A stretch of DNA of 18,073 nt. Origin: a virus (Duplodnaviria > Heunggongvirae > Uroviricota > Caudoviricetes). Position numbers and translations under genes: made by a program. The stretch covers positions 1 through 18,073 of the IMG/VR virus record IMGVR_UViG_2690316325_000011; one strand, 5' to 3'. Below, piece by piece: positions 4,165 through 6,040 of the stretch. Every line of letters begins with the position of its first letter. Positions within the stretch are counted from its first letter, which is position 1. The notes beneath the pieces were generated by a model that saw only the letters and a list, made by a program, of their open reading frames with translations, did no database searches and was not told the DNA's origin.

Positions 4165-4953
4165 ATGGCAGCACAAAATACTAAAACAATTCAATACCGC
4201 CTGCGTAATGGCCAGAGTGTCGAAGTGACCATCAATAATGATGGTGTACCTGGCGAAAAGGTTTCTATCTCCGATCTGGCTATCGAAAAAACCATCATGT
4301 GCCACCTTGGCTTTACTGAAGAAGTGAGCAAAAAGCATGGTGTAGCAATCTGGAGCGCAATGGATACTGGTATGCGCAAATTCATTACTGCTCGTACCCC
4401 AGGGATGACCATGATGGACCTCATGCAGATTGCGCCGCTGTTTGAATGTGAGCCTTTAGATGTATTCAGCAATCCAGCTATCTGCCAGCAGTTATATGGT
4501 GAGATGAAACTCGCGGTTACCCCCATTGTGCTGCATGAAGGATCGCTTGCTGGCGTGTGGAAAGTGGAGCGTATTTCAAGCTACATGCCTTTCCATGTCA
4601 ACGGCGTAATCACTGGTGAAAATCAACCTGTTTCCGTTATAAAGTCAGACCTCAAGCGCGCAATTCTTGAAGCAAGTTGTCGAGTTGTCGGCCTGGGCAA
4701 ACAGTCTTATGTTTCCTTCCCGGCTGGCCCTGAAGGCCCGGCAGAAATTCTGATTATGGATGCCGATCTGCTATGGCAAATACAGTTTCTGATTGGCAAA
4801 AGCATCATCCGCGCTGAAGAACTCGATCAGTACATTACCTGCACGATGACGGATGAAGTCAAAAGTGTGGCTATAGCCAATGCCCGGAACCTATGTCGTG
4901 CTGCATTAACAGAACTGCAAGAAAACACCACGGAAGAGGTGGAAAGTGATTAA
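4165..4953 (+). CDS. Hypothetical protein
   Basis: ATG at 4165 (MAAQNTK...) with weak GAGAAAAG upstream. The ORF track's start at 4045 is a TTG with no SD. Its stop overlaps the GTG start of the next gene. Confidence 0.55.
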   Translation: MAAQNTKTIQYRLRNGQSVEVTINNDGVPGEKVSISDLAIEKTIMCHLGFTEEVSKKHGVAIWSAMDTGMRKFITARTPGMTMMDLMQIAPLFECEPLDVFSNPAICQQLYGEMKLAVTPIVLHEGSLAGVWKVERISSYMPFHVNGVITGENQPVSVIKSDLKRAILEASCRVVGLGKQSYVSFPAGPEGPAEILIMDADLLWQIQFLIGKSIIRAEELDQYITCTMTDEVKSVAIANARNLCRAALTELQENTTEEVESD

Positions 4954-6040
4954 TCGTATACAGAATGAATCTGCCTGGTTAGCACTGATAGAACGGTATA
5001 AAGACAATTGGGAACTGGCAGCAAAAGAGTTGCTTGATATTGAGTTAACACCTCATCAAGCAAAAATTATTAACGCGATAAAGAACACCGGAGCCAAAGT
5101 CACTGCCACCACACCACATGGTATTGGGGAAACCTCTATTGTGGCAGTGATTAGCATCCTGCAAACAATACTGTATTCGTGTTCCCGTACAGTGGTTGTT
5201 TCTCCTGCGATTAACGATAGTCGAAAAACAATAATTGACTATATGTTCCGTTATTGGGAGCGAGTTACCCAAAAACACCCTTTTCTTGGCAATTATTTCA
5301 GAATACACCCTGACAAAGGGTTGGTGCATATCAGTGAAACATGGGGATGCGTCTATATAACCTATTGTCTGAATAACGAAGAGTCTCTGGCTGGTTTTAC
5401 TGGACCGCACGATCTTTTCATCGTTATTAACTCGGCGGAAATCAGCGATCGCGCTCATGCAGTGATAACTGGCAATTTAACCAATTATGACTCGCGCCTG
5501 CTGTTGCTGTCGAAACCATCGGAACGCGAGAAAGGGTACTTTTATGATTCGCATCACCGGTTGGCCCATAGTAAAAACAATCCTGCTGGTTTTTTCACGG
5601 CGATAACTCTAAACACAGAGGATTCACCTCTCGTTTCTGAAGCATATCTTGAATTCAAAGCCAAAGAGTTTGGTGGGCGCAATAGCGATGAATATCGCCG
5701 ATTGATCTTGGGGAAATTTCCCGGGATTCGGGAGTTGATGGAAAAGTCATCTGTTCCCCGTAATATGCACTTCACAATGACTGACGGTAGTAAATGGGTA
5801 GTGCCTACGATCGTGATCGCCAAACACCATGCGAAACATCACGCTCAAAAACACAACTCCAGCACATTAGACTGGCTGAAGGCCTATACAATACCGTTAT
5901 TCTCGGCAAACCATAACGCTATAGCTGAATGGGCTAAACAAATCCCCTGGCAGGATGTGGCTGAAGAGGCATTTGTCGAAAAACCACCAAGAGATTTGCA
6001 CGAGCACTGTTGGCTGACATCAGAAAAAAGCTTCTCGTGA
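4946..6040 (+). CDS. Hypothetical protein (imperfect P-loop-like segment ATTPHGIGETS, no canonical Walker A lysine)
   Basis: 364-aa ORF with GTG start overlapping the upstream stop by 8 nt. Ends 6 bp before a strong hairpin terminator. No family recognised by eye. Confidence 0.55.
   Translation: MINRIQNESAWLALIERYKDNWELAAKELLDIELTPHQAKIINAIKNTGAKVTATTPHGIGETSIVAVISILQTILYSCSRTVVVSPAINDSRKTIIDYMFRYWERVTQKHPFLGNYFRIHPDKGLVHISETWGCVYITYCLNNEESLAGFTGPHDLFIVINSAEISDRAHAVITGNLTNYDSRLLLLSKPSEREKGYFYDSHHRLAHSKNNPAGFFTAITLNTEDSPLVSEAYLEFKAKEFGGRNSDEYRRLILGKFPGIRELMEKSSVPRNMHFTMTDGSKWVVPTIVIAKHHAKHHAQKHNSSTLDWLKAYTIPLFSANHNAIAEWAKQIPWQDVAEEAFVEKPPRDLHEHCWLTSEKSFS

What the first reader, a model, noticed from the sequence alone, without database searches (positions are those of the whole stretch)
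4165..6040. Two coupled genes of unknown function between ssb and the Dar-type operon
A 262-aa and a 364-aa protein, overlapping by 8 nt and ending at a strong terminator, match nothing I recognise. The second has an imperfect P-loop-like segment (ATTPHGIGETS) without the Walker A lysine. Cargo in this position in phage-plasmids is often defence or anti-defence related.
Basis: inference. Interest (0 to 1): 0.35.

Follow-up and report, generated by a model that had tools for sequence, protein, structure and literature searches.

The report
IsaA plus a dead terminase paralog
The two genes are real accessory cargo of a P1-like phage-plasmid: the first is P1's unexplained IsaA, and the second is a conserved copy of the phage's DNA-packaging motor (PacB) that has lost its catalytic residues and its nuclease domain, so it probably works by binding rather than by catalysis.

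Summary
Two ORFs (4165-4953, 262 aa; 4946-6040, 364 aa) overlap by 8 nt and end at a 10-bp hairpin, between ssb and hxr/ddrB.

They are not orphans. Gene 1 is IsaA of phage P1 (94% identity), which is non-essential and has no known fold.

Gene 2 (here 'X') is a paralog of the ATPase domain of PacB, P1's large terminase (35% identity, E=6e-52; Foldseek top hits are terminase ATPase domains).
- The Walker A lysine, the Walker B Asp-Glu and the whole nuclease domain are lost.
- A ~100-aa uncharacterised C-terminal domain replaces the nuclease.

Both genes are under purifying selection (dN/dS 0.1-0.26). They stay adjacent in a lineage only ~50% identical, where a Tad2-like (DUF2829) gene precedes them. 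The dead forms make one clade inside the PacB-like terminases.

The ssb-hxr interval is a published variable region. Other elements carry an anti-phage dGTPase, a HipA-family toxin or IS1+isaB there. X is in 120 of 509 related plasmids.

Function is inferred only: a non-catalytic terminase mimic acting with IsaA in phage-host or phage-phage conflict, most likely anti-defence. This is a new variant of a known kind, of moderate interest.

The parts
3409..3471 (+). ssb promoter region (P2ssb/P1ssb) with the C1 repressor operator Ossb at 3438-3454. It is the probable promoter of an ssb-isaA-X transcription unit.
   Evidence: 100% identical to the annotated P1 region. Operator match ATTGCTCTAATTAATTT has 1 mismatch to the consensus. 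Co-transcription with isaA/X is inferred: no +strand terminator-like site was found between them.
3474..3962 (+). ssb, single-strand DNA-binding protein; upstream neighbour
   Evidence: Pfam PF00436 E=7e-40; P1 ssb synteny
3968..4150 (+). Unannotated 60-aa very basic ORF in the ssb-isaA spacer (status uncertain)
   Evidence: Intact in all 11 sequence variants seen in related loci, but with many amino-acid changes
4165..4953 (+). isaA (262 aa), homolog of P1 gp017 IsaA; function and fold unknown
   Evidence: 94% identical to P1 IsaA. phrog_2326, unknown function, E=5e-149. No Pfam, NCBIfam, PADLOC or PDB sequence match. AF2 pLDDT 65 with no fold match in PDB. dN/dS 0.10-0.24. Non-essential in P1 (PMC10695390).
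4946..6040 (+). Gene X (364 aa): catalytically degenerate paralog of the PacB (large terminase) ATPase domain plus a C-terminal domain
   Evidence: BLASTP against P1 PacB: 35% identity, E=6e-52. 742 homologs, mostly 450-515-aa TerLs. Foldseek top hits are Sf6 gp2, P74-26 TerL and T4 gp17 ATPase domains. dN/dS 0.13-0.26.
4946..5725 (+). TerL/PacB-type ATPase-like domain of X (aa 1-260)
   Evidence: Aligns to PacB aa 11-272. Conservation shared with PacB is concentrated in aa 181-255, the coupling-motif region and lid.
5117..5137 (+). Degenerate Walker A (HGIGETS; PacB has HGTGKSD): Lys replaced by Glu
   Evidence: Alignments. 107 of 124 homologs keep the Lys.
5414..5431 (+). Degenerate Walker B (LFIVIN; PacB has LYIIDE): Asp replaced by Ile, catalytic Glu by Asn
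5726..6037 (+). C-terminal ~104-aa domain of X. It replaces the nuclease domain and belongs to no characterised family.
   Evidence: No Pfam or PDB match. Matches the C-terminus of phrog_17928. Occurs stand-alone (P0146; Cronobacter phage JK004) and fused to a 471-aa protein in Xanthomonas CP2-like phages. It is the best conserved part of X (dN 0.31-0.33 against 0.44-0.52 for the ATPase-like part).
6046..6069 (.). 10-bp perfect hairpin (AAATCCCGCC-GATT-GGCGGGATTT) between convergent X and hxr; probable bidirectional terminator
   Evidence: Folded 56-nt segment: dG -21.4 kcal/mol, z=-4.05. Not called by the simple scan.
6072..6380 (-). hxr (Xre-like), last gene of the dar/ddr anti-restriction operon; downstream boundary of the variable slot
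   Evidence: phrog_2292 E=2e-59; P1 annotation

Best explanation
SHOWN:
- The window is a P1-like phage-plasmid.
- Gene 1 is IsaA.
- Gene 2 (X) descends from the ATPase domain of a PacB-type large terminase.
- X has lost the Walker A lysine, the Walker B Asp-Glu and the whole nuclease domain, so it cannot be a packaging ATPase-nuclease.
- X carries instead a ~100-aa domain that also exists on its own in other phages.
- X and IsaA are translationally coupled, under purifying selection, and inherited together as a mobile module across ~50% sequence divergence.
- The module sits in a known cargo hotspot, directly downstream of ssb and its C1-repressed promoters.

INFERRED:
- The pair is made early in lytic growth from the ssb promoters and forms a complex.
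- X acts non-enzymatically through the terminase surfaces it keeps: the N-terminal helices, the coupling-motif region and the lid.
- As a terminase mimic, it would bind something that normally binds PacB.
- The role I think most likely is anti-defence: blunting host immunity that senses or targets the large terminase.
- That reading fits its conserved partnership with a Tad2-like (anti-Thoeris family) gene and its position beside the Dar anti-restriction operon.
For: Identity:
- BLASTP of X against P1 PacB: 35% identity, E=6e-52.
- An exhaustive HMMER search found 742 homologs, mostly 450-515-aa TerLs matching X aa 5-260.
- phrog_2 (terminase large subunit) E=3.5e-9.
- Foldseek top hits are the Sf6, P74-26 and T4 terminase ATPase domains, probability 1.0.

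Loss of catalysis:
- Motif alignments.
- 14 of 124 homologs lost both Walker motifs.
- 11 of them form one clade with no live member inside; its sister, P0043, is also dead.

Still functional:
- dN/dS 0.13-0.26, with intact ORFs at 37-53% identity.

Coupling with IsaA:
- An IsaA homolog lies immediately upstream in 29 of 32 X loci, including the ~50%-identity lineages.
- 119 of 120 X-bearing plasmids carry the whole region.
- A distant IsaA-like gene and an ATPase-only dead form share one locus in a third lineage.

Context:
- A DUF2829/Tad2-like - IsaA - X trio occurs in the second lineage and in some E. coli elements.
- The hotspot holds a dGTPase, HipA/YjjJ or IS1+isaB in other elements.
- The C1 operator and ssb promoters are identical to P1.
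- X has low GC (44.1%, against 48.6% for the window).
Against: - No experiment, and no homology to any known anti-defence or defence protein (PADLOC: no hit).
- Expression from Pssb is inferred, not shown.
- IsaA has no recognisable fold and is not related to PacA, so the partner's role is unknown.
- IsaA occurs without X in about two thirds of isaA-bearing plasmids (336 against 120).
- X occurs without IsaA in L041, so the pair is not obligate.
- Avs-type sensors are activated by binding terminase, so a mimic could as easily trigger them as block them.
- The C-terminal domain sits next to DnaB, SSB and recombinase genes elsewhere, which fits a DNA-metabolism role equally well.
- The AF2 models are of moderate confidence only (pLDDT 65-69).
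Confidence: 0.4

Rival explanations
1. Packaging interference between mobile elements. X is a dominant-negative terminase subunit. Alone or with IsaA it binds the PacA, portal or PacB ring of a competing P1-like phage or satellite and blocks or redirects its packaging. That would be a defence or exclusion function for the carrier element.
For: X keeps the PacB N-terminal region and lid or oligomerisation-type surfaces while losing catalysis. This is the classic make-up of a poison subunit. It sits in a hotspot that carries defence genes (dGTPase, HipA-like) in sister elements. It is present in only about a quarter of related plasmids.
Against: The carrier's own PacA/PacB are of the same family (35% identity to X), so self-poisoning would have to be avoided. 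The only promoter seen upstream is C1-repressed, so X is probably not made in the lysogen, where exclusion would act. There is no PADLOC hit.
Confidence: 0.2
2. Accessory factor for the phage's own DNA metabolism. IsaA-X, made together with SSB, modulates replication, recombination or the replication-to-packaging switch. One possibility is holding PacA or concatemer ends until heads are ready. The C-terminal domain would dock on a replication protein.
For: The module lies directly downstream of ssb and its promoters. X follows a DnaB-type helicase in L041. The C-terminal domain is stand-alone after DnaB in Cronobacter phage JK004, and in Xanthomonas phages it is fused to a protein next to recombinase, exonuclease and SSB.
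Against: The module is absent from about three quarters of P1-like plasmids and from P1 itself. isaA is dispensable in P1 (PMC10695390). In the second lineage the module is not next to ssb but between dUTPase/Tad2-like and doc/phd. Early regions also gather accessory genes in general, so neighbourhood is weak evidence.
Confidence: 0.2
3. A lysogen-protecting defence system. It would have its own constitutive expression and work by an unrelated toxic or abortive mechanism.
For: Hotspot neighbours in sister elements are defence genes.
Against: No defence-family hit. No effector-type domain (nuclease, toxin, membrane or NADase) was detected. No promoter-like site was found in the ssb-isaA spacer.
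Confidence: 0.08
4. A second, active large terminase, as annotated in GenBank MH422554.1 and MH445380.1.
For: Homology to TerL. The database label is 'terminase large subunit'.
Against: Walker A Lys replaced by Glu; Walker B Asp-Glu replaced by Ile-Asn; nuclease domain absent. IsaA is not a small-terminase homolog. The element's real pacA-pacB lie elsewhere on the same contigs.
Confidence: 0.02
5. A decaying relic of a terminase gene duplication, with no function.
For: Loss of all catalytic motifs and of the nuclease domain.
Against: dN/dS is 0.13-0.26 at both shallow and deep divergence. ORFs are intact in at least four lineages at 37-53% identity. The C-terminal domain is strongly conserved. 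Gene order with IsaA is conserved.
Confidence: 0.03

Closest known systems
PacB, the large terminase (pacase B) subunit of phage P1, and PacB-type TerL proteins
   Same: Homologous over aa 5-272 (35% identity, E=6e-52). Same ATPase-domain fold. Shared N-terminal helices, the 'NEE.LAG', 'GYFYDSHH' and 'SPLV...YGGR' motifs, and the lid region. Found in the same phages.
   Different: Walker A Lys, Walker B Asp-Glu and the SQPT coupling motif are altered. The ~230-aa RNase H-like nuclease domain is replaced by an unrelated ~100-aa domain. The gene is accessory (120 of 509 plasmids). It is paired with IsaA rather than PacA, and lies behind early C1-controlled promoters rather than the late LPpac promoter that P1's annotation places before pacA.
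IsaA (P1 gp017), 'IS1 insertion-associated' protein
   Same: Gene 1 is this protein (94% identity). Same position downstream of ssb.
   Different: In P1 it is followed by IS1 and the unrelated isaB. Here it is followed by X, and similarity to P1 stops at the isaA stop codon. P1's annotated 320-aa start is probably too long.
Satellite-encoded packaging hijackers and inhibitors (Ppi of SaPIs, Rpp of cos-PICIs; from my own knowledge, not tested here)
   Same: Small accessory proteins of mobile elements that act on a phage terminase by binding, not by catalysis.
   Different: Those proteins target the small terminase and are not terminase homologs. X is itself a degenerate large-terminase paralog carried by the phage. 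No interference was tested.
Avs1-3 (AVAST) sensing of the large terminase, with phage counter-measures
   Same: Avs1-3 recognise the large-terminase fold by direct binding (PMC13581612). An Avs3-terminase complex (8dgc) is among the Foldseek hits of the X model. A mimic that is not an enzyme is the kind of object that could act as a decoy.
   Different: No evidence that X binds any Avs protein. In the searched papers no phage-encoded terminase decoy is described.
Tad2 / DUF2829 (PF11195) anti-Thoeris proteins
   Same: A PF11195 (Tad2-like) gene immediately precedes IsaA-X in the second lineage and in some E. coli P1-like plasmids.
   Different: That gene is not present in this window, and IsaA and X have no sequence similarity to it. 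The link is only guilt by association.

Membership tests
Large terminase (TerL / PacB) | ASCE P-loop ATPase-domain fold of the terminase type, with detectable sequence homology | tested here: met
   E=6e-52 to PacB. Foldseek probability 1.0 to the Sf6, P74-26 and T4 TerL ATPase domains, TM 0.4-0.6, on a model of pLDDT 68.8.
Large terminase (TerL / PacB) | Walker A lysine (G-K-[ST]) | tested here: not met
   HGIGETS against PacB HGTGKSD. 107 of 124 homologs keep the Lys.
Large terminase (TerL / PacB) | Walker B hhhhDE, with the catalytic glutamate | tested here: not met
   LFIVIN against LYIIDE
Large terminase (TerL / PacB) | Coupling (C) motif S/T-x-T after the Walker B strand | tested here: inconclusive
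   LLLSKPS against LLLSQPT: the position is conserved but the residues have changed
Large terminase (TerL / PacB) | C-terminal RNase H-like nuclease domain with catalytic acidic residues | tested here: not met
   X ends 104 aa after the ATPase domain. There is no alignment to the PacB nuclease domain and no Pfam or PDB match for the C-terminal domain.
Large terminase (TerL / PacB) | Partner small-terminase gene immediately upstream | tested here: not met
   IsaA against PacA: BLASTP E=28; hhalign probability 0.3%
IsaA (phrog_2326) | Full-length sequence similarity to P1 gp017 | tested here: met
   94% identity; phrog_2326 E=4.9e-149 over aa 4-262
Known anti-phage defence systems (PADLOC-DB) | Match to any defence-protein profile | tested here: not met
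   0 families for both proteins at E<=1
Anti-defence proteins | Demonstrated inhibition of a defence system, or homology to a protein with that activity | not testable with these tools
   Only context: a Tad2-like neighbour in related loci and the adjacent dar operon
Variable region 2 / RD-2 of P1-like phage-plasmids (isaA-IS1-isaB slot) | Lies between ssb and hxr, with content differing among otherwise syntenic elements | tested here: met
   described in PMC9603915 and PMC6906374

The most novel reading that the evidence does not exclude
IsaA-X is a phage-encoded terminase decoy. X would be an enzymatically dead copy of the PacB ATPase domain, made early in infection. With IsaA it would occupy or mislead host pattern-recognition immunity that senses the large terminase (Avs1-3-type STAND NTPases or similar), shielding the real PacB made late. 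It would be the first case of a phage evading protein-sensing immunity by molecular mimicry of its own conserved core protein. It would also define a whole clade of 'pseudo-terminases', including the 250-270-aa ATPase-only forms.
Probability: 0.12. Interest if true: 0.85.

Novelty: new variant of a known kind. Interest (0 to 1): 0.5.

Why it matters
Large terminases are among the most conserved phage proteins, and hosts use them as immune 'patterns'.

A monophyletic clade of terminase ATPase-domain paralogs has lost catalysis yet is kept by selection. These paralogs are fused to a separate domain, coupled to IsaA and moved between cargo hotspots. That points to a non-enzymatic use of the terminase fold which I could not find described.

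Three things follow.
- It gives a testable function to isaA, a P1 gene unexplained since the genome was published.
- It flags an annotation trap: some records call X 'terminase large subunit', which gives P1-like phages two apparent terminases.
- It offers a concrete candidate for phage-host or phage-phage conflict in the clinically common P1-like phage-plasmids of E. coli and Salmonella.

Tried and rejected
- X as the intact form of the gene that IS1 disrupts in P1 (isaB as its C-terminal remnant): rejected. isaB shows no similarity to X, and P1 similarity stops at the isaA stop codon.
- IsaA as a diverged small terminase, which would make IsaA-X a duplicated pacA-pacB operon: rejected at the sensitivity available (BLASTP E=28; hhalign probability 0.3%).
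- The C-terminal domain of X as a remnant of the PacB nuclease domain: no support. PacB matches phrog_5902 over its full length, but direct alignments show no shared nuclease motifs, and there is no Pfam or PDB match.
- Pfam, NCBIfam and PADLOC scans and PDB sequence searches of both proteins: nothing significant.
- Fold searches of the IsaA model against PDB and BFVD: only P1's own IsaA fragment, plus one weak unnamed hit at E=3.6e-3. The model is only pLDDT 65, so absence of a match is weak evidence.
- The word-indexed protein search returned few hits (3 and 9). The exhaustive HMMER search was needed to see the family.
- A genome-contig scan for the ATPase-only dead forms found nothing. One alignment was too diverse to seed a scan.
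- The encoding contig of P0002 is not on record.
- Literature searches for dead or decoy terminases, PacB paralogs or anti-Avs in P1 found nothing relevant.
- My first Walker B column count was off by one and was corrected.
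Full report
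**1. What is in the sequence**

The window is a P1-like phage-plasmid. The stretch 4000-6100 is 100% identical to Escherichia phage vB_EcoM-813R1, and its first 955 bases (through isaA) are 94% identical to phage P1. It is also 100% identical to E. coli plasmid NZ_CP024817.1.

- Gene 1 runs 4165-4953 (262 aa).
- Gene 2 runs 4946-6040 (364 aa, GTG start).
- They overlap by 8 nt, and a GAGGTG motif precedes the GTG.

Downstream, at 6046-6069, is a perfect 10-bp hairpin with a 4-nt loop. The folded 56-nt segment has dG -21.4 kcal/mol and z -4.05. It lies between gene 2 and the convergent hxr gene. The simple terminator scan missed it because the T-run after the full stem is weak.

Upstream lies ssb (Pfam SSB, E=7e-40). 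The ssb promoter region is base-for-base identical to the annotated P1 region, including the C1 operator at 3438-3454.

**2. Gene 1 is IsaA**

- It is 94% identical to P1 gp017 IsaA and belongs to phrog_2326, of unknown function.
- Homologs at 43-48% identity start at the position of the ATG at 4165. The 262-aa reading is therefore preferable to P1's annotated 320 aa.
- There is no Pfam, NCBIfam, PADLOC or PDB sequence match.
- The AF2 model (pLDDT 65; residues about 35-130 are confident) has no significant fold match in PDB. In BFVD it matches only P1's own protein.
- A CRISPRi screen scored isaA non-essential in P1 (PMC10695390).

**3. Gene 2 (X) is a degenerate paralog of the large terminase PacB**

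PHROGs gave a weak 'terminase large subunit' hit (phrog_2, E=3.5e-9). Two GenBank records already label the gene that way.

An exhaustive HMMER search found 742 homologs. Most are 450-515 aa and align to X residues 5-260 with their N-terminal ~260 residues.

Related loci showed that the best 'live' relatives are pacB genes, each preceded by pacA and followed by c1. Some lie on the very contigs that also carry X: L026 with L078, and L017 with L079.

- Direct BLASTP of X against P1 PacB gives 35% identity over X 11-272, E=6e-52.
- The AF2 model (pLDDT 68.8) hits the ATPase domains of the Sf6 gp2, P74-26 and T4 gp17 terminases with probability 1.0.

**4. It cannot be an active terminase**

| Motif | PacB | X |
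|---|---|---|
| Walker A | HGTGKSD | HGIGETS |
| Walker B | LYIIDE | LFIVIN |
| Coupling motif | SQPT | SKPS |

The whole ~230-aa nuclease domain is missing.

Of 124 homologs scored, 107 keep both Walker motifs and 14 have lost both. In a neighbour-joining tree of the ATPase domain, 11 of the dead forms make a clade with no live member inside. Its sister (P0043) is also dead, and the group is nested among PacB-like terminases. The tree has no bootstrap.

Some members are 250-270-aa ATPase-only proteins that end right after the 'G.FP' motif.

**5. It is nevertheless a maintained gene**

- dN/dS against relatives is 0.14-0.26 at shallow divergence (dS 0.008-0.19). It is 0.13-0.20 against the ~50%-identity lineages, where dS is saturated.
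- IsaA gives 0.10-0.24.
- Conservation shared between the X and PacB families is concentrated in aa 181-255, the coupling-motif region and lid. It is also present in the N-terminal helices.
- The most conserved part within the X family is the C-terminal domain (dN 0.31-0.33, against 0.44-0.52 for the ATPase-like part).

**6. The C-terminal domain (aa 261-364) is a separate module**

It has no Pfam or PDB match. It occurs in several other settings.
- As a stand-alone protein: P0146 (123 aa), and a 98-aa protein two genes after a DnaB-type helicase in Cronobacter phage JK004.
- At the C-terminus of a 471-aa protein of Xanthomonas CP2-like phages, near recombinase, exonuclease and SSB genes.
- In the C-terminus of phrog_17928.

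In locus L041, a 362-aa X homolog (37% identity) directly follows a DnaB-type helicase.

**7. IsaA and X travel together**

- In 29 of 32 loci that encode an X-type protein, an IsaA homolog is the gene immediately upstream. This includes two lineages only 49-53% identical to the window.
- The three exceptions are L014, L028 (cut by the contig end) and L041.
- In those lineages the module sits at a different place in the genome. It lies in an operon cre - 114 aa - 158 aa - dUTPase - DUF2829 (Pfam PF11195, 'Tad2-like') - IsaA - X, convergent with doc/phd.
- In a third lineage, a distant IsaA-like gene and an ATPase-only dead form lie in the same locus, separated by two genes on the other strand.
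- The pair is not obligate. In PLSDB the ssb region matches 509 plasmids, isaA 336 and X 120. Of the 120, 119 carry the whole region.

**8. The slot is a cargo hotspot**

Between ssb and hxr, related elements carry:
- isaA alone (L005);
- isaA plus a HipA-family toxin, YjjJ (L004);
- DUF2829 plus isaA (L007);
- an anti-phage dGTPase plus a hypothetical gene, with no isaA (L006);
- isaA + IS1 + isaB, in P1 (L001).

isaB is unrelated to X, and similarity to P1 ends at the isaA stop codon.

This interval is already described as variable region 2 / RD-2 of P1-like phage-plasmids (PMC9603915, PMC6906374). X has lower GC (44.1%) than the window (48.6%).

**9. How it most likely works**

Shown: X is a non-catalytic protein with a terminase fold and an extra domain. 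It is co-encoded and co-inherited with IsaA, is accessory and mobile, and lies downstream of C1-controlled early promoters.

Inferred: it acts by binding, through surfaces inherited from PacB, to something that binds PacB.

I rank the options as follows.
- Anti-defence mimicry first (overall 0.4, including the shown parts). The reasons are the conserved Tad2-like partner, the adjacent Dar operon, the probable early expression, and the fact that the large terminase is a known immune target (Avs1-3; PMC13581612).
- Packaging interference against competitors (0.2).
- A role in the phage's own replication-to-packaging transition, suggested by the ssb, DnaB and recombinase neighbourhoods of the C-terminal domain (0.2).
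- An unrelated lysogen-protecting defence system (0.08).
- An active second terminase (0.02) or a dead relic (0.03) are contradicted by the motif and selection analyses.

**10. Comparison with what is known, and novelty**

X is a homolog of TerL/PacB but fails four of the six defining features tested, so it should not be filed or annotated as a terminase. IsaA is a member of the IsaA family by sequence.

In the literature library searched, I found no description of a catalytically dead terminase paralog, a terminase decoy, or a function for IsaA. That library is incomplete.

I rate it a new variant of a known kind, with moderate interest (0.5). The identity is solid and somewhat surprising. 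The function is open and directly testable.

Noticed in passing
window 3968-4150 (+): An unannotated 60-aa, very basic ORF (MSKKRLKEKRWSKRQQKHELAKKRQSW...) fills the ssb-isaA spacer. It is intact in all 11 sequence variants found in related loci, including the DUF2829-containing arrangement. It shows many amino-acid replacements, so it is unclear whether it codes. The last ~75 nt before the isaA ATG are identical between the window and P1.
   Followed up: partly
L001 3998-4960 (P1 NC_005856.1 isaA) versus window 4165: P1's reference annotation gives IsaA 320 aa. Distant homologs and the DUF2829-isaA arrangement support the shorter form starting at the internal ATG (264 aa in P1, 262 aa in this window).
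   Followed up: yes
L002 3953-5047 (MH422554.1); also MH445380.1: GenBank records label the X gene 'terminase large subunit'. That gives these P1-like phages two apparent large terminases, and it is an annotation trap for PHROG- or HMM-based pipelines.
   Followed up: yes
Proteins P0037, P0050 (646-670 aa): Some PacB-like large terminases carry a ~200-aa insertion exactly inside the Walker A P-loop (HG...HNTGKS). It has Hint-like motifs and is probably an intein.
   Followed up: no
L006 5738-7669 (NZ_CP091679.1); L004 3178-4482 (NZ_CP058684.1): In sister P1-like plasmids, the same ssb-hxr slot carries an annotated anti-phage dGTPase plus a 122-aa hypothetical gene (with no isaA), or isaA plus a HipA-family toxin YjjJ with no obvious antitoxin gene annotated beside it.
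   Followed up: partly
L008 / L037-L040, about 3500-7100: A second lineage of P1-like phage-plasmids has the operon cre - 114 aa - 158/162 aa - dUTPase - Tad2-like (PF11195) - IsaA - X, convergent with doc/phd. The 114-aa and 158-aa genes have no Pfam hit on record.
   Followed up: partly
L089 5908-7323 (P0010, 444 aa): One dead terminase-ATPase homolog carries a different ~185-aa C-terminal extension and sits in a non-P1 context (a viral contig rich in small early-type genes). This suggests the dead ATPase module has been fused to more than one C-terminal domain.
   Followed up: no
L003 10637-11662 (ON470617.2): The phage record that is 100% identical over the finding (window 4000-6100) carries an IS200/IS605 (IS609) transposase gene beyond ddrB, on the dar side. 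Whether this stretch lines up with the window was not checked.
   Followed up: no
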